Assembly: GCA_000165345.1 (NCBI GenBank)
Contig: CM000435.1
Span: 1,184,001 to 1,248,000, forward strand
DNA: 64,000 bases
Direction: 5' to 3'
Under the pieces are notes generated by a model. That model ran no database searches, was not told the origin of the DNA, and worked only from the letters and a program-made list of their open reading frames with translations. This document shows, one piece after another, positions 1,127-53,433 of the stretch; the stretch's first letter is position 1, and each line of letters begins with the position of its first letter. Position numbers and translations under genes: made by a program.

Positions 1127-1575
1127 TTAACGCTTTAATCTCCTTTTCTTTGATTTCAGCTATGCTTTTATTTCCTCTCCAAATTCTAAAATTTTCCAAA
1201 ACTCCCCTTCATCAGAATATTTTTTTGATATTGCATGCAATTTTTGAAATTTCATTAATTTATTTTGGAGCCCATAGCAAAAGGCTCCAAAATAAATTCC
1301 AGTTTGAGGGGCAATAATTAATCGAAATTTGACTTTTTTAAAGAATTTGAAATCCCCGTAAAACTCGACTTTATAAATTAATTTCTATTTTTTAATTAAT
1401 TCCAATTTTTCTCAGAATTCACAATTTCCACTCCCAATATTAGCAAATAATGGAGAGTTCCCCACTTTCTACACCATTCATTTGACCCTATTTACTGCTG
1501 AACTCTTGGAGTCTAGGCTAAAGTTAAGTTAACTTCTTGAATTAACAGAGCACTCTCTTACTATTACTTGCTTTG

Positions 1576-3087
1576 ATGTACCCAGAAATAATTAGTAATA
1601 AGCTTCCAGTTCTTATAAAACTGCTTATTGATCAATACATCTCCATATTTTCAAGTCCATTATTTCTATGTTTAAGTATTTTACTGGCTTTAGTTGTTCT
1701 AATAGATTTTATTATAAGAAAGAATAATGCAAAGAAATATTCATCATACTCCTTAAATAATCGTCAGAATGTGGTCCAAAATTCAAAACATATTAGAAAA
1801 TTTGTTGAGCAAACCAAAATATCCTTTGGATGTTGTTGGAGATATGAATCAAAAAAAAGAATTCATGGAAGGATGTTTGTGAACGATAGATCAATCACAT
1901 TCTTCTCACCAATCTCCATTACTTACGAAGATGAAGAGTTTATCTCAAAATATTCGTCATTCCCAGGTATGCTCATTTCAGATGTTACCAGAATCACTCT
2001 AGAATATACCCAGATCTCAAGGATGATACGTAGAGGTGGAAATAAAGTTTTAAGAGGAAGTGTTACTTTTGAGATCCATAATAACAGTGAAATTCCTTTG
2101 GAATTAATGTTTTGCCATTTTTTCCATACAAAATATGTATATGATTTACTTTCTAAGCTTTGTACTTTAAGTTGTAGCAGAATTCATGAAACCATCCTAG
2201 GGGATAAAAATAATCCCGATTTGAATAATATTGTTCATGAGAAGGTCAATTCTATTGAAGATTTGGAAAATATCGGGAAATTGGATCAAAAAACTGAGTC
2301 TATTATTCCTAATGAACCTTGCAATTTTCTCCTGTATAATATTCAAGATAGAATTTCCATAAGTAATAGCTGTGACTTGGATCAACAAAATATATATGGA
2401 ATATTGGCCAAAAAAGCAAGTAATGACTTTGAAGAATTTATTAACGAGTATGACTTTAACTCTATTCCAACATCATCTTTGTCAAATGTTTTCCCTTGTG
2501 TGATTATACCATTAAAAGTCCAGAAAATCTTCTCAATACTTTCAAACCATACCATGGATAGCTCAAAGAACGTTTATCTTAAATACCTGGAACTTTCTGG
2601 AGCTTCTAATATTCAAATTGAATCTAAACCTTGCAATGGTGACTTTATGTTTCATTATATATATAAATATGAAAAATCTTTAAGTTTAACAGGCAGTTTT
2701 GGATTTGGTTGGCTTTCCAAAGGAATGATGAATATAAAGTGTCAAGAGGATCTCAAACTTTATAATCTTGGTAGTGATGTTGGTATTTTACTTTGTATAG
2801 ATATTAACTCCACTGGTATTCCTGAAAATGACGCTTTTACTGTCAATATAAGACACAGATTTACACCTTTTACAACAGTTTCAAATGCTAATAGTTCAGT
2901 TAATATGGATAATCAAATATCAAATAAACAAGAGGATCAACAAAACAACTTTGTTCAGCTTGATGTTGAATGTGATGTTACTTTTTATAGATTTTCTTTT
3001 TTCAAAAGTCCTGTTGTTCAAAATGCAATTGACCAGACTAAAAAGGGTCTTGAGCTTATTAGATCATCATGGAAGATGCATTACTGA
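1576..3087 (+). CDS. Hypothetical protein with an N-terminal transmembrane segment
   Basis: 503-codon ORF. The ORF track starts it at TTG 1573; the first ATG is at 1576. Hydrophobic stretch LFLCLSILLALVVLIDFII near the N-terminus. No recognisable catalytic motif. Confidence 0.5.
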   Translation: MYPEIISNKLPVLIKLLIDQYISIFSSPLFLCLSILLALVVLIDFIIRKNNAKKYSSYSLNNRQNVVQNSKHIRKFVEQTKISFGCCWRYESKKRIHGRMFVNDRSITFFSPISITYEDEEFISKYSSFPGMLISDVTRITLEYTQISRMIRRGGNKVLRGSVTFEIHNNSEIPLELMFCHFFHTKYVYDLLSKLCTLSCSRIHETILGDKNNPDLNNIVHEKVNSIEDLENIGKLDQKTESIIPNEPCNFLLYNIQDRISISNSCDLDQQNIYGILAKKASNDFEEFINEYDFNSIPTSSLSNVFPCVIIPLKVQKIFSILSNHTMDSSKNVYLKYLELSGASNIQIESKPCNGDFMFHYIYKYEKSLSLTGSFGFGWLSKGMMNIKCQEDLKLYNLGSDVGILLCIDINSTGIPENDAFTVNIRHRFTPFTTVSNANSSVNMDNQISNKQEDQQNNFVQLDVECDVTFYRFSFFKSPVVQNAIDQTKKGLELIRSSWKMHY

Positions 3088-10213: not shown

Positions 10214-12103
10214 ATGTCGACAAGAATTCAAATTTTCCTGTTAACTGTGCTTTTTATTGGATTATTTAACGATTCAGTGTCACAATTTACACAAAACTTG
10301 AAAATAATTGAATCAAAGTCTGTATGTGTAGATTCAGATATTTATGATTCAGAAACAGATATGTGCCTGGCGAAAGTTAATGCAATAAGTAAAAGTTGTC
10401 CTAAAAATTGTCAAAAGTTTGGTCATCTCTGCAAATGCATTGATGAAATTCCAATTCAGTCAATTTGCCCAAGCGAATATGTTCTTTCTCCAAATATGAA
10501 AAAATGTATCAAAGTGGAAAAGCTTGCACCTTCAATAGAATGTGGGAGAGGATTAAAGTGGTCAGAAAGTAAAAATATATGCGTTGGAGTAAAGTTATCA
10601 GCTCCAGAGCTGACATGTAGTAAAGAGAATTCCATGTTAATTAATGGAGTTTGTTTGACGTATAGTAAAAAGAGTATTCAAAATGTTTGTGAAGATGGGT
10701 TTATTATTAGGGAAAAAAATATATCAGAAAAGTCACAAACTGTCAAGTTAAATACAAGAGGAATTAAGACTGGACATCAGAATAATAATGATGAATCGAG
10801 AATTAGTACAAGTTATTGTGTAAAAGAACTTAGCTCACCTTATAATTTAGAATGCCCCAATGGTTTTATTCTAGACAGAGAAAGATCTTCATGTATTTCT
10901 CAGGTTTTCAGTGATCCAGAACCTAAATGCTTACCTGGCTTTGAGTTTGATAATAAATCTGAAACTTGCGTAAATAGGTCATTAGAAGAGTCTTCCAGCA
11001 GAGTATGTCCAAAAGATTATGTGCTTGAAGGTTTTCAGTGCGTCCAATCATCTTTTGTCAGTCCTGAGCCACGATGTAGAGAGGGATTCGTTTTTAGTGT
11101 TGAAGATGCTGCATGCATTAAAGTATTACGAGAGCCTCCATCATATAGATGCCCTTCTGATTTATATATTTTTGATGGAAAACAATGCGAACTAAGAAAA
11201 ACAGAGAAACCAACAATAATGTGTGGAAATGGGACCATTTTAGACGAAAAGATACAAAAGTGTGTTAAAATCAATGTAATGCCAGCAACAATGGTTTGTT
11301 CAGGAGGAAGACAGTATGACGAAGATAAAAGAAAATGTTATGTAATTCAAGTTCAAGAATCTAACAAAACTTGCTCAAGTGAAGAAAAATATGATCCAAA
11401 AAGGGATATGTGTATTAAATTTGAAGAAAAGAAACCCGTCAAAGGTTGCCCTTATGGTTTTAATCTTAATGAATTAGAACAAATTTGTGTTCAAGAAAAC
11501 TTCGAAGAACCCAAGCTCTCTTGTAAGGCTCCTTTCTCCTTAGTTGGAGGGGACTGCCTTTATAATGCTGAAGTTCAACCCGAATATGTTTGCCCTGAGA
11601 ATTTTGAGTATAATGCACAAAATTCGCAATGTTTAATGCAAAGTACTATACAGCCTGAAAATGGGTGCCCCGAAGATTATAATGAGTACATTGATAAATG
11701 TATTAAACAAATAGAAAAGAATCCAGTAAGTGTATGCCCTACGAATTCAAAGTTAAACACAATCACAAATGAATGCTTTATTCCTAAAAAACCATTGAAG
11801 GAGTGCCCTACAGGGTTTAAACCAACTAATGATTCTGCCACTCAATGCATTCAAATATTAAATCAAAATAGACCTCAAGCTATCCAAACTACCCACAGCA
11901 ATAATAACAGACATCACAACGGTCATCATCAAGCTTTCATTGGAGATTACTACAATAATCATCCCAATATAAGAAATTTCGGAGATGTAAGTAATACCCA
12001 GGTGCAAACAGTTCAACTATCAAATCCTAATAGAAGAATAGGAGATCCCAGCTTAAATGTATATCCTCAAAACATTAAAACCGCACCTAGACCAAGAAGG
12101 TGA
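10214..12103 (+). CDS. Secreted cysteine-rich protein with oocyst-wall-protein (COWP)-like repeats and a His-rich C-terminal tail
   Basis: Signal peptide MSTRIQIFLLTVLFIGLF. At least 11 reiterations of C-x(n)-C-P-x-(G/D)-(F/Y)-x(4-8)-C modules (ECPNGFILDRERSSC, VCPKDYVLEGFQC, GCPYGFNLNELEQIC, ECPTGFKPTNDSATQC…). Tail NNRHHNGHHQ. Confidence 0.6.
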   Translation: MSTRIQIFLLTVLFIGLFNDSVSQFTQNLKIIESKSVCVDSDIYDSETDMCLAKVNAISKSCPKNCQKFGHLCKCIDEIPIQSICPSEYVLSPNMKKCIKVEKLAPSIECGRGLKWSESKNICVGVKLSAPELTCSKENSMLINGVCLTYSKKSIQNVCEDGFIIREKNISEKSQTVKLNTRGIKTGHQNNNDESRISTSYCVKELSSPYNLECPNGFILDRERSSCISQVFSDPEPKCLPGFEFDNKSETCVNRSLEESSSRVCPKDYVLEGFQCVQSSFVSPEPRCREGFVFSVEDAACIKVLREPPSYRCPSDLYIFDGKQCELRKTEKPTIMCGNGTILDEKIQKCVKINVMPATMVCSGGRQYDEDKRKCYVIQVQESNKTCSSEEKYDPKRDMCIKFEEKKPVKGCPYGFNLNELEQICVQENFEEPKLSCKAPFSLVGGDCLYNAEVQPEYVCPENFEYNAQNSQCLMQSTIQPENGCPEDYNEYIDKCIKQIEKNPVSVCPTNSKLNTITNECFIPKKPLKECPTGFKPTNDSATQCIQILNQNRPQAIQTTHSNNNRHHNGHHQAFIGDYYNNHPNIRNFGDVSNTQVQTVQLSNPNRRIGDPSLNVYPQNIKTAPRPRR

Positions 12104-46091: not shown

Positions 46092-47267
46092 CTATTCATT
46101 TCTGTTAATTTTAATAGAGGAAATAGTTTTATATACCTGTTCTTCATTACTTATGACTCCTATTTCTTGAATTCCAGATAATTCATTAAGCTGAATTTCA
46201 GAGATATATCCAGGACCAAAGCTTTTTTTTGAGTATGCTTTCACAAGACTACTAGAATTAAATGTTAATTTCTGTTTTTCACTTTTATTTCCGTATTTTG
46301 TATTGATAAAGGTTACATGTGGGTTATAATCCTGTACTATAGAATCTTTTAGATTTTGTGATTTGTTACTAATCTCTGAATTAGAATCAGATATTGTTAA
46401 ATTAACCCCATATTTTATCAGTATCTCACAAAGTTTAATCCAAAGTCGTTTAATCATTGCAATTTTATGATTTTCAGATATTTTTGCATATACAACTCTA
46501 GAATTATAAGGAGATCCAAAGTACCCTAATCCATGTAACTCCACAGGAAATCCCTTTTCAGAAGATGATTCTTCCAAAATGTCTCGAAACTCTTGAGTTT
46601 CTTTTAATTCGAATAATGCATTCTCACACTGTAAAAGTTCTTGAGGTGTTTCTGCTCGAACTAACCCCAAAGTTATGTGCAATTTCTTCTCACCAATAAA
46701 AAATGTCGGTTTAATTTCTCCGTACTCTGCAGATTCATTCACCACTTTTTTTAAAGCTTTGAATTCCTTGAATAGATTCAAAGAGTGCTGATTAAATGAT
46801 AAACTGAAAAAGTGTGTTGGAGTTTGATTTACTTTGATATTTTGATCTTTTTCCTCCAAATAATCCACAAATTCCAAATGATCAAAATTTGAGCCAAGCT
46901 TAGTAGCTTCTTCAGATTCTTCGCTTTCAGAATTTGAGAAATTACTATCTTCCTTAATAACTTGCACTTCGCTTGTAGGCTTAAATGAAAGTCTTTTCAA
47001 CAAACTTGCTGGAATCTGACTCAAGTCCACATACTCACTCACCATCCTCCCCCTTTCTTTATCCCCTGACCTCTGAAAGATGTTGTCTCGTATTTCAACA
47101 GCTTTTACTGGCGGGAATAAAATCATCTCATCTAACTTTTCGATTTCATTTGAATGAAAATGACTACCCTGGGGGGAATTATGATCATTATAAGATCCCT
47201 CTGCTCCCGTAACTCCGCTTTCTTCGTTCAGTTGTTTTTTAGATTCCTTAATTTTTTTTGAAGCCAT
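46092..47267 (-). CDS. 2H-phosphoesterase-fold protein (ASCC1/AKAP7/LigT-like)
   Basis: Two H-x-T/S-x motifs at the right spacing: KKLHITLGLV and NPHVTFINTKYG. Confidence 0.45.
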   Translation of the reverse strand: MASKKIKESKKQLNEESGVTGAEGSYNDHNSPQGSHFHSNEIEKLDEMILFPPVKAVEIRDNIFQRSGDKERGRMVSEYVDLSQIPASLLKRLSFKPTSEVQVIKEDSNFSNSESEESEEATKLGSNFDHLEFVDYLEEKDQNIKVNQTPTHFFSLSFNQHSLNLFKEFKALKKVVNESAEYGEIKPTFFIGEKKLHITLGLVRAETPQELLQCENALFELKETQEFRDILEESSSEKGFPVELHGLGYFGSPYNSRVVYAKISENHKIAMIKRLWIKLCEILIKYGVNLTISDSNSEISNKSQNLKDSIVQDYNPHVTFINTKYGNKSEKQKLTFNSSSLVKAYSKKSFGPGYISEIQLNELSGIQEIGVISNEEQVYKTISSIKINRNE

Positions 47268-47340
47268 AAATCATTCTAATCGGTACCGTTAATTTCCTCA
47301 ATTTACTTTTACTACTTTAAGCACTGCAAGCAAACAGAGA

Positions 47341-47358
47341 GCGCCAACTAATGGCGCC
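47341..47358. promoter_or_regulatory. Paired E2F-type boxes (GCGCCAACTAATGGCGCC) in a divergent promoter
   Basis: Between the 2H-phosphoesterase start (47267, -) and the CtIP-like start (47623, +). CGGTACCG at 47281-47288. Confidence 0.55.
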
Positions 47359-47622
47359 GTTTGTCGATCTAATTTACAGCCAAAATTATTTAAAGGGGTG
47401 GGCTTAATAATATTCTGAATTTACTTAAGAATAGAAACGGGTATAATTTGACTTGGAAAATAGCAAGAGGTTGCAGATGTTTTATATTTTTTGTGTGAGC
47501 ATTTTCATTCGGAAAATACACTCGTATTAAGTAAATAGTATTAATATATCGATCGCATGCTGGTAGTTACCAGGAGCTAAACAGTAAAATAAAAATAAGA
47601 TAATACTTGTTTTAATGAAACC

Positions 47623-48423
47623 ATGGATCAAATCATTGACGATGATGAGTACAATTCAATTTTCCCACTTGAGAAAATTGCTTCTCATTTGAATATTTCC
47701 TTAAAATTCCTAGAAAATGCTCAAATTCAGTGGATGAATGAAAAAGAATCACTCCTTCGTGAAATTGAGAGACTAAGAATGGAAAATAGAACTCTAAGAA
47801 TGGAAGTTAGAAGTAGTGAAAATATTGAAAGGAATTCTGTCTCAAATACTCCAAATAACAACAGAATTAAAAGTTATTATTTAATAAACAATGACTCTGG
47901 TCAGATTATTCCTATCCCTCCAAATCCAGTAAATCAAGTAGTTGGAAGAAGCTGCAGTAGTTCAAACAATATTAAAAGAGTAAACGATGTTCTTGAGATT
48001 CAAAATATTACCGAAAGAAATTCGAATGCTATTCCAAATAGAAATTCGATTTCTGCATCGAGAAGCATCCAAAATGATCAGATTTCTCCAGCTACAAGTT
48101 CACAAAACTGTCGAGTGAGACATATACAACTTGAAGACGAAAATAGCGACCATGAACCATTAGAGGAAAAGAAAAAAGCTATTAAGTATAGAGAAGTTGG
48201 AAAAAGTATTGGCAAAAAAGAACAAAGAAAGAATCTTGAAGCATTCGAGTGTACCGAGTGTTCTAAGTTTTACAAAGCTATTAATAATAATAGAACATCA
48301 AATAGCCAATCAATGTGTAAGCATCTAAAGCAAAGCCTTCTTCTTCAGAATTCAGGAAGGCATAGGTTCAAACATCCTCCAACTAAATCTCCCCCAGGGT
48401 ATTGGGATTTGGATGAAATTTGA
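47623..48423 (+). CDS. CtIP/Sae2/Ctp1-like DNA end-resection factor (short form)
   Basis: N-terminal coiled coil (LLREIERLRMENRTLRMEV). C-terminal Sae2/CtIP signature FECTECSKFY…GRHRFKHPPTKSPPGYWDLDEI, matching the CtIP C-terminus C.ECSKFY…GRHRY.PP.TPE.FW…F. Confidence 0.55.
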   Translation: MDQIIDDDEYNSIFPLEKIASHLNISLKFLENAQIQWMNEKESLLREIERLRMENRTLRMEVRSSENIERNSVSNTPNNNRIKSYYLINNDSGQIIPIPPNPVNQVVGRSCSSSNNIKRVNDVLEIQNITERNSNAIPNRNSISASRSIQNDQISPATSSQNCRVRHIQLEDENSDHEPLEEKKKAIKYREVGKSIGKKEQRKNLEAFECTECSKFYKAINNNRTSNSQSMCKHLKQSLLLQNSGRHRFKHPPTKSPPGYWDLDEI

Positions 48424-48514: not shown

Positions 48515-50411
48515 TTATCCGGCATTAGTAAACGGTAAATCTTTTCCATTAGGTATTAAGTTAGAACCAGAATCGGGATCAGCTTGCAGTACAAAAACGG
48601 CCCAATCTCTTAAGATGTGGTTTATTTCTTTCAAGAAGGGTGACTTACATTGTAAAGGAGTACAATTTGTAGAATGCACCGCTACAACGAGAGAGCATGC
48701 TGGCTCTTTAAAAAATTGTGCCTTTTTCTCCACGTACTGGAGAAGTGGAGCAGTTGTAGCTTGATTATTACCTATAAGTTGCCCAAGATTTCCAGAAATA
48801 ATTATTTCTTCTTCTGTTTCTTTACCAAATACATTACCATAGTTTCCCATATATACCCCCGATAAAGGACCAAATTCCAATTCTTTTTCTAAACCAGGCT
48901 CAAACATTTGGGTCGCTAATGTTCCTCCGAATGCCATTTCTTGGAGTCTTCTAAGCATTATATTGTTGTTATTACCGATATCATCCCATTTCCTTTTACC
49001 CACTCCAATCTCAGATTCATCATCTTTTAATCCTTTGGAATCTCCACAAATTCCTTTATCTTTGATACAATTCTTTGAACTGTTTTCAAATTCGTTAGTT
49101 AAAAACTCAACATTATTTTCCATATCAATTCCCATACCTCTCATTTGAACAGCTTGGATGTCTGCTTGACTTTTCTTCACATAACGAGAAGAGGAAGTGA
49201 ACAAATTGTTTGAAATAGTGTCTTGACCTCTTGAACTAGTGTCATTAAAGTTGATTGGAAACTCTTGATCATTCTTATTTTCAGAAATTTCGTTTAAAGT
49301 TTCAAAGATATCTTCAACTACTTCATCTGACACCACATCATTCTCATCAAATGTTCCAGAAATAATTTTGTATGTCTCATCTTCAGGAATTTCTTCTCCA
49401 AACTCATATTTTTCGAGTGCTTTAGGAGGAAAAATAACGTTGAAGCCCTTTGGACACCAAATTCTGCCTCTTGTATAATTAACAATATTACAAATCATAG
49501 TTACTCTTTGATAAAAAGCAAAGTTTGAGCCAATATATGAAGGTTGGGAATTATCTGGACAAATTGCTATTGGTGGAATAACCTGAAATGCTTTGCATCC
49601 TTCAATTGAATTAACAAATCCTGCTGGACAAATTCCTCCATCCAATTCCTATAAAAAAAAAATTCAAATGAATTATCATCAATAATTTTATCTCCTTAAA
49701 CTTACAGAAAATGGAATAACACGATACCCTTCGCATGCCCATGATATAATATCTGGAGTAACTTCTCCTGTATTTGAATTAGTTTCTGATTCGTACTTAA
49801 GTCTAAGTTTCATTCCTGCTGGACATGCTAAAGAAGGTCCTACTTCTCTTTTTTCCTGGCAAATTCCTATTTTTAATAAATAAAAAATATATTATATTTA
49901 ATATAAGTAAATTTATTACTGTAAGCCAAAAAGAATATTTTGCAAAATTACCTGGATATAAAGATGACTGTTTAGGAATAGTGCCTGACGCTGAGCTAAC
50001 AAATCTTCCCAGATCACCAAAACACTCTGTTCTTGGTCCCAAAGAAACCTCAGCCATACAAAGTGGCCCCCAAGGAGTCCAGCCTTTTGGGCATCTGACC
50101 TGAACAGGTCTAATTAATTCAGGTACCCTATTATCTACTCCTTTTTCTTGCTTTCTAGTTAAAATGGGTTCAAATTCAGGTTTTTTTTCCGTCAATTTAT
50201 GAAGCTCAAGAATCTCCGTAATATTTGCATCATATCTGGGAAACTTGTCTTTCCAAGGAAGGGGCTTGTAATCTGACTTTAATTTTTGAGGTCCATACAT
50301 TTCAGCTGGGTTTGTAGATCCTGAAAAGTCATGCCTTTCTTGTGCCACATTTCTTTGCGATAATACATATCTAAAACATAAAACAAGCAGTAATAATATC
50401 AAAAAATTCAT
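48515..50411 (-). CDS. Secreted cysteine-rich (COWP-like) protein, spliced; the middle exon is not resolved
   Basis: The track ORFs 49803..50411 and 48515..49645 belong to one gene. The first has an ATG and a signal peptide MNFLILLLLVLCFRYVLS. The second starts at a TTG artefact. Exon 1 ends at 49952: CCAG followed by GTAATT at plus 49946-49951. A perfect 57-nt intron (GTAAGT…TTTTTTTTTATAG, 49648..49704) joins …PFS to ELDGGICPAGFVNSIEGC. Between them the 49705..49866 segment has stops in all frames as one exon. The best model uses acceptor CTTAG at 49803, giving exon 49705..49802 (DLKYESETNSNTGEVTPDIISWACEGYRVIPFS). Motifs RCPKGWTPWGPLC, ICPAGF…C and WCPKGF. Confidence 0.45.
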
Positions 50412-50760
50412 TTTATAACTAGAAAATGAGTATCATCTGCTCAGTTCAATTCATATTTCTTGAACTTTCATTAAAAAGAAAAACCTTATTGCATGCTTTT
50501 TTATAATATTACCAAATTACCCGCCAAAGCGATTTTTTGATGATACCCCAAAAAGATCGATAAAGAAAAAAAAATAGGACAAATTATTACGTGAAAAGTG
50601 GGAAAAACTTTGATACACATATTTTTGTGTATGAGCCCTAATAGTGAATCAGATATTAGGTAGCAGAGAGAGAGAGAGAGAAGCAAAATATCTTGGAGTT
50701 GGAACAATGTTTTGAAGTTAATGGGATCAGAAAGAAGAACAAAGGTATTTCCGGTTAAAT

Positions 50761-53433
50761 ATGAATAACGAGATTGAAGTATCCGGAATTTATTCATTAC
50801 CTGAGATAGATAAGTTAATAGGAGAAAAGGTATTTTTTTCATCGGCTCTACAAAATAGCCTTTCAAGCAAAAATGAACAAGAATTAAAAATATATAGTTA
50901 TCTAAATCAAGATTTAAGCGGATCTATCTTAGAGACTGAATCAATTTTAAATAAAGTATTTAACACTGATAACTTTTCTATGACGGATTCGTCTATTTTG
51001 GAGAAAAATGAAGACAATATAGTCGATGGAATTCATCAAAAAGAAGAGTTAAATAGTCATTACGTCTCAGTAGAAAACACTCTGAAAGAGAATCAAAGCA
51101 TTGAAAACTCTTTGAGTGAATTTCCAGATGAAAAAGGAGTAGCAGCTCAAGATGATTTAAACGAGAGTTCTGAAGGGAAAAGTAAAATTAATATCAACGA
51201 AATGGAGCATTTTATGGATGCTGATGCAAACTCTGTTGGGTCTGAGATGGATTCTCTGGATGGATATACAACATTTGACTATGGATTTGATGGGAGTGGG
51301 ATTATTTCTTCTGTGGAAGACTGGGAAAGTGACGATAACTCGGTAGTTTTTAGATATAATGAAATGGCCTGGCCAGAAGAAGCCATATTAGAAGGAACAG
51401 AAACGGATGCAAATGAGGTTATAGAAAATATATGTGAAGAGGATGACCCAGATAAAGATTTAGGCGAAGCTAAATCTGAAGAAGAAATTGTACCTAAAGA
51501 AAATACTCCTGAATGCAAGGATTATAATCAAATTTCAGTTAATGAAGAGAATTTTATTAAAGAATCCGAATTTGTTAGCAGTGAAATCAAAATTGGTGAT
51601 GTTGAATCTATTGGCAGAAGCGATCAAATAGATAGTGATGAAAGAGATGTTATTTATATAAAAAGAAGACCAGGTTCTGAAAGCAGCTTTCATGTTGAAG
51701 GAGGGATGATGCACGTACCTTCAGTTGAACAAGAGGTAGTACTGGAAAAAGTTGCGGGAGAGAGTGCTGAGGCTTCTCCGTCGTCGACAAAATTCAGGAA
51801 ATGGCTTTCAAGTAACTCAGGAACCTCTAAGATCCATTCATATTTAGGAAATTTTAGAGGAGAAAATTTCAAGGATGGCTCCGGGATATCTGGTTCAAGT
51901 ACTTTGAAGAGTTTATTTAAAGTTGGAGGAGTTTTTAGAAGATATGGGTACCTTTCAAACTCTTCTTTTAACTCAAATCTTGTTACAAGTTTGGGAAGTA
52001 TTATTAATCAAGCAGAAAAGAGCAATAGTAGGACATTCAAAGGTGATGATTCTGGCCTATCTCATGTAGAAGTCTTAAACGGAGCTCACGAAGCCAGAAG
52101 AAACTTGAGACAGCGTACCCTTCCGATGAAGATTTCTACAAAATTTCAAATCAGCAATAAGACAAGGAAGGCAAGGGAAAATGATATTGGATCAATTTGG
52201 CTGATAAGAGAAATATATTTATCTTTAACACCTCAAATTCTAAAGCTATCAATGAGTATTGATGGAGAGTGGTTGATTTTAGGAAGTCAAGATGGTAGTA
52301 TACGACAATGGAAGTTTAAAGGAGATGAATTTGGAGATTCTGGAATGATTTCGTCATCAGGCCATCAAATAGAGCCATTCTTTAATGAAAAGGAGGACTT
52401 TAATATTCAAGCTCATTCAAATGCAATCATATCTTTGCACTGGGAGAATGATGAAGGAAGCCATAGGTTTCTCTCAAGCAGTATGGACAGAACTGTGAAG
52501 CTTTGGGAGGCAGGCTCTACAGAACCAAATGCTGTAATTAACTGCTCAGATTGGCCGACATCTGTTTCTTTCCATCCAATACAAAAAAATATTATTTTTA
52601 TTGGCTCATTAGATGCATCTGTACAGATTTTGAGACTAATTCCTAACGAAGGTTCCCCAAATAAATTCCTAACCAAAGTAGTTGAAACGATTAGAGTACA
52701 GGATTTATTGACTTCTTTATCTATTTCACCTAATGGTAAATATCTTGCTTGTGGATTTAAGGATGGGGGAGTTGCATTTTACGATGCTAGAACTTTAAAG
52801 TATAGATGTGATGTGGATTGTAGAAATAGAAGAGGAAAATCCTCAAAAGGCAGAAAAGTTAGTGGTATTTCTTGGAAAAGAGACAATAAAAGTGTTTTAG
52901 TAACTACTAATGATAGCAGAGTGAGATTATTTAATTTGAGTGATTTGTCAACATTTGTTAAATTTAAAGGCCATATAAATGAGGAAACTCTTCTTTCTGC
53001 TCAAATTTCTAATGATGAAAAATTCATAGTCTCTGGTTCGGAAAATGGGTACATTTGTTTGTGGGATCTTCAACCAGATTTTGGAAGATCCATTTTTGGA
53101 ATCCAATACAATAAAAATAACCTAAATGGCTCGAACTTCCACCCAAATGTTACCAGCAACCAAATTTCTTTAAGATATGATAGGATTAACATTAGAAGAG
53201 GTCCCACGCAACATTGTGTTGACTCATTCAAGGCATTTGATTCGTCTCTAACCTCGACTATACTTGCTCCTCCTGCTTTTTCCAAAAAGATTATTAAATT
53301 CTTCAAAATGAACCAAAGAAATTCATTGAATTATCCTTCATTTGGAACCTACATTAATGAAAAAAATGCTCAAATATTTATCGCTGTAAACAGAAATGGA
53401 CAAATCAGAATTTTTATGAACATTCCTAATTAA
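50761..53433 (+). CDS. WD40-repeat protein (C-terminal beta-propeller, long low-complexity N-terminus)
   Basis: WD signatures LGSQDGSIRQWKF, SSSMDRTVKLWEA, GSLDASVQILRL, CGFKDGGVAFYDA, SGSENGYICLWDL in the last ~400 aa. Confidence 0.7.
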   Translation: MNNEIEVSGIYSLPEIDKLIGEKVFFSSALQNSLSSKNEQELKIYSYLNQDLSGSILETESILNKVFNTDNFSMTDSSILEKNEDNIVDGIHQKEELNSHYVSVENTLKENQSIENSLSEFPDEKGVAAQDDLNESSEGKSKININEMEHFMDADANSVGSEMDSLDGYTTFDYGFDGSGIISSVEDWESDDNSVVFRYNEMAWPEEAILEGTETDANEVIENICEEDDPDKDLGEAKSEEEIVPKENTPECKDYNQISVNEENFIKESEFVSSEIKIGDVESIGRSDQIDSDERDVIYIKRRPGSESSFHVEGGMMHVPSVEQEVVLEKVAGESAEASPSSTKFRKWLSSNSGTSKIHSYLGNFRGENFKDGSGISGSSTLKSLFKVGGVFRRYGYLSNSSFNSNLVTSLGSIINQAEKSNSRTFKGDDSGLSHVEVLNGAHEARRNLRQRTLPMKISTKFQISNKTRKARENDIGSIWLIREIYLSLTPQILKLSMSIDGEWLILGSQDGSIRQWKFKGDEFGDSGMISSSGHQIEPFFNEKEDFNIQAHSNAIISLHWENDEGSHRFLSSSMDRTVKLWEAGSTEPNAVINCSDWPTSVSFHPIQKNIIFIGSLDASVQILRLIPNEGSPNKFLTKVVETIRVQDLLTSLSISPNGKYLACGFKDGGVAFYDARTLKYRCDVDCRNRRGKSSKGRKVSGISWKRDNKSVLVTTNDSRVRLFNLSDLSTFVKFKGHINEETLLSAQISNDEKFIVSGSENGYICLWDLQPDFGRSIFGIQYNKNNLNGSNFHPNVTSNQISLRYDRINIRRGPTQHCVDSFKAFDSSLTSTILAPPAFSKKIIKFFKMNQRNSLNYPSFGTYINEKNAQIFIAVNRNGQIRIFMNIPN

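What the first reader, a model, noticed from the sequence alone, without database searches (positions are those of the whole stretch)
48515..50411. Second COWP-like secreted gene is spliced, and the ORF-caller start (TTG) is an artefact
Two adjacent minus-strand ORFs are exons of one gene. The upstream one (49803..50411) carries the ATG and signal peptide. The downstream one (48515..49645) begins exactly after a textbook intron (GTAAGT…poly-T…TATAG, 49648..49704), with a Cys module (GGICPAGFVNSIEGC) at the junction. The sequence between them cannot be one exon because there are stops in all frames. My best model skips to acceptor CTTAG at 49803 (exon 49705..49802), giving a 149-nt first intron with an atypical GTAATT donor. 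A frame-preserving alternative through …LACPAGMKL hits TAA. So there may be a sequencing frameshift, an additional micro-exon or alternative splicing. Either way, multi-intron genes are unusual in this intron-poor genome.
Basis: seen in the sequence. Interest (0 to 1): 0.5.

Follow-up and report, generated by a model that had tools for sequence, protein, structure and literature searches.

The report
Three-exon oocyst-wall gene, already annotated

Summary
The window is C. parvum chromosome 7. It is 99.97% identical, with no gaps, to two newer assemblies over 9.9 kb.

The donor GTAATT at 49951 joins the acceptor ATAG at 49867 (85 nt), not the AG at 49803 (149 nt). The supposed in-frame TAA is a misreading: CTT AGA CTT AAG encodes LRLK.

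The clean model is exons 50411..49952, 49866..49706 and 49648..48515, giving 584 aa. It matches the deposited C. parvum protein (CPATCC_0011350 / cpbgf_7005400) at all but one residue. Deposited gene models in seven other Cryptosporidium species have both introns at the same positions, and exon 2 is 161 nt in every one.

No frameshift, micro-exon or alternative splicing is needed. In the literature the gene is female-enriched and is listed in the hyperLOPIT oocyst-wall set. It is only remotely COWP-like and belongs to a separate, unnamed family shared with coccidia, gregarines and Cardiosporidium.

Verdict: already known, low interest.

The parts
49952..50411 (-). Exon 1 (460 nt, ATG at 50411; ends in phase 1 inside Gly154). 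Encodes the signal peptide and the first CPKGW cysteine module.
   Evidence: Same 460-nt exon in C. parvum IOWA-ATCC/BGF, C. hominis, C. meleagridis, C. ubiquitum and C. canis.
50355..50411 (-). Signal-peptide coding part (aa 1-19, MNFLILLLLVLCFRYVLSQ).
   Evidence: It contains the most hydrophobic 19-mer of the protein (Kyte-Doolittle 1.89 at residue 1), and all of the top five 19-mers start within residues 1-5. The cleavage site is inferred, not predicted with a dedicated tool.
49867..49951 (-). Intron 1, 85 nt, GTAATT…TTTTTTATTTATTAAAAATAG, 13% GC.
   Evidence: An intron sits at the same codon position and phase in the deposited models of all 8 species (61-110 nt). It diverges faster than the exons (59% identity against 82-86% for C. 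parvum vs C. ubiquitum).
49706..49866 (-). Exon 2, 161 nt (Gly154 to Ser207: GICQEKREVGPSLACPAGMKLRLKYESETNSNTGEVTPDIISWACEGYRVIPFS).
   Evidence: It is 161 nt in all 8 species. Substitutions concentrate at third codon positions: 54 of 87 in the first 66 nt and 82 of 128 in the rest. Cys156 and Cys168 are invariant out to Toxoplasma and gregarines.
49649..49705 (-). Intron 2, 57 nt, GTAAGT…TTTTTTTTTTATAG, 18% GC, phase 0. If retained, it gives an in-frame stop at codon 213.
   Evidence: Same alignment column and phase as intron 3 of T. gondii TGME49_208760 and intron 4 of the Cardiosporidium cionae homologue.
48515..49648 (-). Exon 3 (1134 nt including the TAA stop at 48515..48517). Starts GAA TTG GAT = Glu208-Leu209-Asp210.
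   Evidence: The TTG that the ORF caller took as a start is Leu209. Public 376-aa 'MDGGICPAG…' proteins from Logan assemblies repeat the same artefact.
49454..50093 (-). Cysteine-module region (aa 107-272, 11 Cys, four CPxG[WMF] modules). It spans both introns.
   Evidence: Nine of these Cys are invariant across the apicomplexan family. There is a remote profile match to COWP5.
48518..48703 (-). Conserved C-terminal domain (aa 523-584: PACSLVVAVHSTNCTPLQC…W…DPD…IPNGKDLPFT).
   Evidence: Most conserved stretch among the Cryptosporidium orthologues. C525, C536, C541, W556 and D564 are invariant in the wider family. No Pfam match.

Best explanation
Window 48515..50411 (minus strand) is one ordinary protein-coding gene of Cryptosporidium parvum chromosome 7. 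It is now called cgd7_5400, CPATCC_0011350 or cpbgf_7005400. The 2004 Iowa II annotation split it into cgd7_5390 and cgd7_5400.

The gene has three exons separated by two short, AT-rich GT-AG introns of 85 nt (phase 1) and 57 nt (phase 0). Splicing gives a 1755-nt CDS and a 584-aa protein. The protein has an N-terminal signal peptide, no transmembrane segment, a region of four CPxG[W/M/F] cysteine modules, an acidic low-complexity middle, and a highly conserved three-cysteine C-terminal domain.

Shown here: the exon-intron structure, its conservation in annotated orthologues across the genus, and membership of a family shared with coccidia, gregarines and Cardiosporidium.

Taken from the literature: transcripts are roughly 10-fold enriched in female gametes, and the protein is listed in the hyperLOPIT oocyst-wall set.

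Inferred: the protein enters the secretory pathway in macrogamonts, is released with wall-forming-body contents, and becomes a disulfide-linked component of the oocyst wall.
For: Gene model:
- The model is open and in frame.
- It differs from deposited C. parvum QOY40867.1/WRK33724.1 (584 aa) at one residue, I499M. Its C-terminal 327 aa are identical to Iowa II EAK90491.1.
- The deposited C. parvum gene spans 1897 nt with introns at 461-545 and 707-763, which are the same positions.
- Deposited models in eight species (parvum, hominis, meleagridis, ubiquitum, canis, bovis, andersoni, serpentis) have both introns at homologous positions. Exon 2 is always 161 nt, every intron is GT..AG, and intron lengths vary without regard to the reading frame (introns 61-110 and 46-83 nt).
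- The introns have lower GC and lower identity than the exons, and retaining either gives an in-frame stop.
- Cys156 and Cys168, within that stretch, are invariant in 11 family members from Cryptosporidium to Toxoplasma and gregarines.
- There are no indels against two other assemblies.
- Baptista et al. 2022 state that the introns of the IOWA-ATCC annotation are 100% supported by RNA-seq (PMC8744675).

Function:
- The old halves cgd7_5390 and cgd7_5400 show matching female-enriched expression in Tandel 2019: log2CPM 1.99 in asexual stages for both, against 5.2-7.0 and 5.8-6.1 in females.
- cgd7_5400 is in the hyperLOPIT oocyst-wall gene list together with COWP1-9 (PMC10233709 supplementary code and methods).
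- UniRef names the C. ubiquitum and C. canis orthologues 'Oocyst wall protein'.
Against: I could not inspect junction-spanning reads for this gene. The RNA-seq support is a general statement about the annotation, not about this locus.

The orthologous gene models could have been propagated by homology. However, the codon-position bias, intron divergence and invariant cysteines do not depend on the annotators.

The oocyst-wall assignment comes from a spatial-proteomics list seen only through another paper's code. No tagging or localisation was found for this protein.

The AlphaFold2 model was unusable (pLDDT 28.8), so there is no structural support.
Confidence: 0.93

Rival explanations
1. One reading: the first intron is 149 nt, from donor GTAATT at 49951 to acceptor CTTAG at 49803, with a middle exon 49705..49802.
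For: An AG is present at 49804..49803, and the donor is the correct one.
Against: With the correct intron-2 borders it is also out of frame. The only in-frame version would use TA, not AG, as the acceptor. It would delete ICQEKREVGPSLACPAGMKLR, which is conserved in all orthologues, includes two family-invariant cysteines, and evolves as coding sequence. The sequence upstream of that AG, GGAATGAAACTTAG, is not a pyrimidine tract.
Confidence: 0.01
2. Two independent genes, as in the 2004 Iowa II annotation and the 2015 re-annotation: cgd7_5400 (the 202-aa read-through ORF) and cgd7_5390 (327 aa from the internal Met258).
For: Both models are still in public databases (P0016; P0023, a 202-aa protein that differs at one residue from the window's 49803..50411 ORF). 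Isaza 2015 lists them separately.
Against: The 202-aa model ends in intron-encoded sequence (NFAKYSFWLTVINLLILNIIYFLFIK…) that is not conserved in any species. The 327-aa model starts in the middle of the conserved cysteine region and leaves exon 2 and 50 codons of exon 3 unexplained. Both halves have the same expression profile. Later analyses list only cgd7_5400. Toxoplasma, Cardiosporidium and gregarine homologues carry both parts in one protein.
Confidence: 0.03
3. A sequencing frameshift, a hidden micro-exon, or regulated alternative splicing is needed to connect the ORFs.
For: Mechanically, several other in-frame AG dinucleotides exist inside exon 2.
Against: A simple GT-AG solution exists with no frame problem. 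The sequence is gap-free against two newer C. parvum assemblies. Exon 2 length is invariant in 8 species. Retaining either intron gives a premature stop.
Confidence: 0.02

Closest known systems
Current C. parvum gene model cgd7_5400 = CPATCC_0011350 / cpbgf_7005400 (QOY40867.1, WRK33724.1), and its annotated orthologues (ChUKH1_15460, CmeUKMEL1_03040, cubi_03211, OJ252_710, FG379_003285, cand_017220, ACR3K2_33230, ELE39_002972)
   Same: Same locus, same three exons, same 584-aa product. There is 1 aa difference (I499M) and 1 nt difference within the gene. Synteny is conserved (WD40 gene | this gene | SAE2-like | AKAP7/LigT-like).
   Different: Nothing of substance. The window carries A instead of G at 48773, giving Ile499 where every other isolate and species has Met.
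Cryptosporidium oocyst wall proteins COWP1-9 (for example COWP5 = cgd7_5150, in this window at 10214..12103 +)
   Same: Signal peptide, no transmembrane domain, and CPxG[F/Y/W]…C modules. Female-enriched transcripts. Listed with the COWPs in the hyperLOPIT oocyst-wall set. Remote profile similarity over 140 columns (hhalign probability 73.6%, E 2.9e-5).
   Different: Cysteine content is 2.9% overall (one per 15 residues, and only in aa 107-272), against 6.7% in COWP5 and the 'every 10th-12th residue' that defines COWPs (PMC12548878). No COWP was recovered by phmmer or by a profile search of 1.84 billion proteins. It has a long acidic middle and a distinct conserved C-terminal domain that COWPs lack. 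Female expression is about 8-16-fold lower than COWP5.
Toxoplasma gondii TGME49_208760 and homologues in Hammondia, Neospora, Cardiosporidium cionae, Gregarina niphandrodes (GNI_096100), Selenidium and Ancora (all 'hypothetical')
   Same: Same architecture: cysteine modules plus a C-terminal three-cysteine domain, with 12 invariant cysteines, W556 and D564. Profile E-values range from 1e-46 to 1e-4. One intron (the C. parvum second intron) is at the identical alignment column and phase.
   Different: Only 20-28% identity to the C. parvum protein. The T. gondii and Cardiosporidium gene models each have four introns against two here. The middle regions are unrelated. No function is known for any member.

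Membership tests
Spliced (GT-AG, U2-type) three-exon protein-coding gene | Canonical GT donor and AG acceptor, with an AT- or pyrimidine-rich tract before each acceptor | tested here: met
   GTAATT…TTTTTTATTTATTAAAAATAG and GTAAGT…TTTTTTTTTTATAG.
Spliced (GT-AG, U2-type) three-exon protein-coding gene | The spliced product is one open reading frame from ATG to stop | tested here: met
   1755 nt, 584 aa, no internal stop.
Spliced (GT-AG, U2-type) three-exon protein-coding gene | Intron positions conserved in orthologues, introns evolving as non-coding and exons as coding sequence | tested here: met
   Deposited models of 8 species: exon 2 is always 161 nt, intron lengths vary without regard to the reading frame, intron identity is 52-68% against 60-86% for exons in the distant species, and substitutions are biased to third codon positions.
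Spliced (GT-AG, U2-type) three-exon protein-coding gene | Transcript reads that span both junctions | not testable with these tools
   No read data are available here. Baptista 2022 state that all introns of the IOWA-ATCC annotation, which contains this model, are RNA-seq supported.
COWP family (COWP1-9) | Signal peptide and no transmembrane domain | tested here: met
   Hydrophobic N-terminus only. No other 19-mer has high hydropathy. No dedicated signal-peptide predictor was available.
COWP family (COWP1-9) | Cysteine-rich throughout, about every 10th-12th residue (PMC12548878) | tested here: not met
   17 Cys in 584 aa (2.9%). One per 15 residues only within aa 107-272. COWP5 has 6.7%.
COWP family (COWP1-9) | Detectable sequence homology to known COWPs | tested here: inconclusive
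   No COWP among the phmmer or hmmsearch hits. BLASTP against COWP5 gives E 0.037. hhalign of the family profile against the COWP5 profile gives probability 73.6%, E 2.9e-5. Cysteine-repeat profiles can inflate such scores.
COWP family (COWP1-9) | Expressed in female gametes and located in the oocyst wall | not testable with these tools
   Literature only: log2 fold change female vs asexual of 3.2-3.8, and inclusion in the hyperLOPIT oocyst-wall list. No tagging study was found.
Unnamed apicomplexan cysteine-module family (cgd7_5400 / TGME49_208760) | Conserved cysteine framework in the module region, plus the C-terminal C…C…C…W…D domain | tested here: met
   C107, C118, C130, C156, C168, C225, C237, C260, C272, C525, C536, C541, W556 and D564 are invariant in 11 sequences. 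Profile E-values reach 6.6e-46 outside Cryptosporidium.

The most novel reading that the evidence does not exclude
cgd7_5400 and its relatives (TGME49_208760, gregarine and Cardiosporidium homologues) may form a previously unnamed, ancient family of oocyst- or cyst-wall proteins distinct from the COWPs. Its CPxG cysteine modules tend to be one per exon: all four T. gondii introns lie 2-8 residues upstream of a module. At least one of these module-delimiting introns has survived since the apicomplexan ancestor, even in the intron-poor Cryptosporidium genome.
Probability: 0.4. Interest if true: 0.3.

Novelty: already known. Interest (0 to 1): 0.1.

Why it matters
The value is mostly in annotation clean-up. 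It shows that a bacterial-style ORF caller and a by-eye splice model both mislead at this locus, and that the correct model is already public.

Practical points:
- Truncated or split versions of this gene are still deposited. These are the Iowa II 327-aa model, a 202-aa read-through ORF of the cgd7_5400 type (P0023), C. hominis 327 and 413 aa, C. tyzzeri 327 aa, C. felis 412 aa, C. ryanae 168 + 338 aa, and Logan 376-aa 'M'-for-TTG products.
- The 202-aa version carries a spurious hydrophobic tail encoded by the intron, which would be mistaken for a membrane anchor.

The biological interest is modest. The protein is a poorly studied candidate oocyst-wall component with homologues in Toxoplasma and gregarines.

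Tried and rejected
- Pfam scan of the 584-aa protein: no family, even at E ≤ 1.
- AlphaFold2 with the six-orthologue alignment: mean pLDDT 28.8, pTM 0.17. The model is unusable, so no fold search was run.
- Full-text searches for cgd7_5400, cgd7_5390, CPATCC_0011350, cpbgf_7005400, cubi_03211, cand_017220 and TGME49_208760 found no relevant paper.
- The oocyst-wall proteome supplements of PMC9508764 do not list the gene.
- The hyperLOPIT paper itself (PMID 36958336) is not held.
- No supplements are held for Baptista 2022.
- I enumerated every in-frame AG acceptor after the donor. Thirteen keep the frame open, but only the first keeps all conserved residues and has an AT-rich tract upstream.
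- My first codon-position count included intron sequence by an indexing mistake. It was redone correctly.

Full report
**What is in the sequence**

On the minus strand, the ORF 49803..50411 starts with ATG and encodes MNFLILLLLVLCFRYVLSQ…. The ORF 48515..49645 is listed with a TTG start. Between them every frame contains stops. The window is 31.7% GC.

The C-terminal 327 residues encoded here are identical to C. parvum Iowa II EAK90491.1/XP_628682.1. The 9.9 kb around the gene aligns to two other C. parvum assemblies (CP044416.1 and CP141124.1) with 3 mismatches and no gaps. So this is C. parvum chromosome 7, and an indel or frameshift is excluded.

**The gene model**

| Part | Window coordinates (minus strand) | Length | Notes |
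|---|---|---|---|
| Exon 1 | 50411..49952 | 460 nt | ends …CCA G, phase 1 |
| Intron 1 | 49951..49867 | 85 nt | GTAATT…TTTTTTATTTATTAAAAATAG |
| Exon 2 | 49866..49706 | 161 nt | Gly154 to Ser207 |
| Intron 2 | 49705..49649 | 57 nt | GTAAGT…T10ATAG, phase 0 |
| Exon 3 | 49648..48515 | 1134 nt | includes the TAA stop |

The spliced CDS is 1755 nt and gives 584 aa with no internal stop.

In frame, that sequence reads CTT AGA CTT AAG TAC = L R L K Y, and it stays open to the GTAAGT donor.

With corrected intron-2 borders it is still out of frame. The only in-frame variant would need a TA "acceptor".

The TTG at 49645 is Leu209, the second codon of exon 3. Public Logan assemblies contain the same artefact as 376-aa proteins starting "MDGGICPAG…".

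**Independent support for the model**

- The 584-aa product differs at one residue (I499M) from deposited C. parvum proteins QOY40867.1/WRK33724.1 (locus tags CPATCC_0011350 and cpbgf_7005400). Their gene spans the same 1897 nt with introns at the same places.
- I recovered the exon structure of the annotated orthologues in C. hominis, C. meleagridis, C. ubiquitum, C. canis, C. bovis, C. andersoni and C. serpentis. All have two GT..AG introns at the homologous codon positions and phases, and exon 2 is 161 nt in every species.
- Intron lengths vary freely: 61-110 nt for intron 1 and 46-83 nt for intron 2. The introns are more AT-rich than the exons, and retaining either one gives a premature stop.
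- The introns diverge faster than the exons. Between C. parvum and C. ubiquitum the exons are 82-86% identical and the introns 59% and 68%.
- Annotations can be copied between species, so I also checked the substitution pattern. In exon 2 the changes concentrate at third codon positions.
- That stretch encodes Cys156 and Cys168. Both are invariant in an alignment of 11 family members that reaches Toxoplasma, Cardiosporidium and gregarines.
- Baptista et al. 2022 state that the introns of the IOWA-ATCC annotation are 100% supported by RNA-seq (PMC8744675). I could not inspect reads for this locus myself.

**History of the annotation**

The 2004 Iowa II annotation had two genes here. cgd7_5390 was 327 aa, starting at the internal Met258. 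cgd7_5400 was the upstream ORF; a 202-aa read-through version of it, P0023, is in the protein collection and differs at one residue from the window ORF. The 2015 re-annotation still listed the two separately (PMC4637869 supplement). Later annotations merged them.

The 202-aa model ends in intron-encoded NFAKYSFWLTVINLLILNIIYFLFIK…, a spurious hydrophobic tail.

Truncated or split models also remain for other species. These are C. hominis (327 and 413 aa), C. tyzzeri (327 aa), C. felis (412 aa) and C. ryanae (168 + 338 aa). The missing exons are present in the C. felis and C. ryanae DNA.

**Is a two-intron gene unusual?**

Not particularly. Isaza et al. 2015 report introns in 10.8% of C. parvum genes. 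Those genes have 2-10 exons (mean 2.6), mean intron length is 99 nt, and intron GC is 22%. This gene is typical of that set.

The GTAATT donor is within the range seen at this very intron in other species: GTAAGA, GTAAGT, GTAAGC and GTATGA.

**What the protein is**

- It has a hydrophobic N-terminus and no other hydrophobic segment.
- It has four CPxG[W/M/F] cysteine modules between residues 107 and 272.
- It has an acidic, poorly conserved middle.
- It has a very conserved C-terminal domain (PACSLVVAVHSTNCTPLQC…W…DPD…IPNGKDLPFT).

Pfam finds nothing and AlphaFold2 gave an unusable model.

A profile search of 1.84 billion representative proteins found 24 hits. Apart from Cryptosporidium orthologues, they were:
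- T. gondii TGME49_208760, plus Hammondia and Neospora;
- Cardiosporidium cionae;
- gregarines (Gregarina niphandrodes, Selenidium, Ancora and other transcriptomes);
- one protein filed under a bee genome.

There were no COWPs and no Plasmodium proteins. Twelve cysteines, W556 and D564 are invariant.

**Is it COWP-like?**

The true COWP in the window is COWP5 (cgd7_5150) at 10214..12103 on the plus strand. Against it:
- BLASTP gives only E = 0.037.
- A profile-profile comparison gives 73.6% probability (E 2.9e-5) over 140 columns.
- Cysteine content is 2.9%, against 6.7% in COWP5 and the "every 10th-12th residue" used to define COWPs.

So it resembles COWPs in module style, but it fails one defining feature and is not a demonstrable member.

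Both old gene halves are about 10-fold higher in sorted females than in asexual stages, with near-identical profiles (Tandel 2019 supplement). cgd7_5400 also appears with COWP1-9 in the hyperLOPIT-derived oocyst-wall gene set used by Tandel et al. 2023. Wall localisation of this particular protein has not been shown by tagging in anything I could find.

**A side result on intron age**

Mapping the annotated exons of the T. gondii and Cardiosporidium homologues shows an intron in the same alignment column and phase in all three lineages. The C. parvum second intron (IPFS|ELDGGICP, phase 0) matches T. gondii intron 3 (IPIA|VAAGDHCP) and Cardiosporidium intron 4 (KPYT|SLKGKHCP). It is therefore probably ancestral.

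The first C. parvum intron lies 17 nt away from the nearest T. gondii/Cardiosporidium intron and is in a different phase, so its homology is unresolved.

In T. gondii all four introns sit 2-8 residues before a CPxG module, which hints at one module per exon.

**Verdict**

The proposed first intron and the speculation about a frameshift, a micro-exon or alternative splicing are wrong. The correct model is already in public annotations. This is an ordinary, already known gene.

Noticed in passing
window 48773: Single coding difference from the other C. parvum assemblies: A on the minus strand instead of G, giving Ile499 (ATA). IOWA-ATCC, BGF, C. hominis, C. tyzzeri, C. meleagridis, C. ubiquitum and the chipmunk genotype all have Met. 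Either a private Iowa II SNP or an old sequencing error.
   Followed up: partly
window 10214..12103 (+): The 'first' COWP gene of the window is COWP5 (cgd7_5150): 629 aa, 42 Cys (6.7%). It has a sub-threshold Pfam hit to the chitin-binding Peritrophin-A domain CBM_14 (E 3.3e-4, 21.2 bits against a cutoff of 22.1) at residues 52-100.
   Followed up: partly
L010 (T. gondii KL998107.1), gene positions about 737-761 of TGP89_208760: The annotated donor of intron 2 (GTAGGA) lies 21 nt downstream of a perfect GTAAGT donor. The 21 nt encode VSRIILL, an insertion absent from every other family member. The T. gondii model probably uses the wrong donor, or this is an alternative donor.
   Followed up: partly
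P0027 = XP_053992436.1 'Hylaeus volcanicus': A family member filed under a bee genome (profile E 2.2e-29). All other members are apicomplexan, so this is most likely from a gregarine or other apicomplexan contaminant or symbiont in the bee assembly.
   Followed up: no
L012 (C. felis) 1357..2341 and L013 (C. ryanae) 1507..2545: The deposited models are truncated (C. felis, 412 aa from an internal Met in exon 2) or split (C. ryanae, 168 aa + 338 aa). tblastn finds the missing upstream exons intact in both loci.
   Followed up: yes
window 50655..50680 (minus-strand reading): A (CT)n microsatellite (ctctctctctctctctctg) lies within the first coding bases of the plus-strand WD40 gene cgd7_5410 (50761..53433).
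   Followed up: no
window 46092..48423 and 50761..53433: Gene order around the locus is conserved in the seven other Cryptosporidium species whose deposited loci I examined (not looked up for C. hominis, where only the protein was fetched...): WD40 protein (890 aa) | this gene | SAE2/CtIP-like protein (266 aa, weak PF08573) | AKAP7/LigT-like 2',5'-RNA-ligase-fold protein (391 aa).
   Followed up: partly
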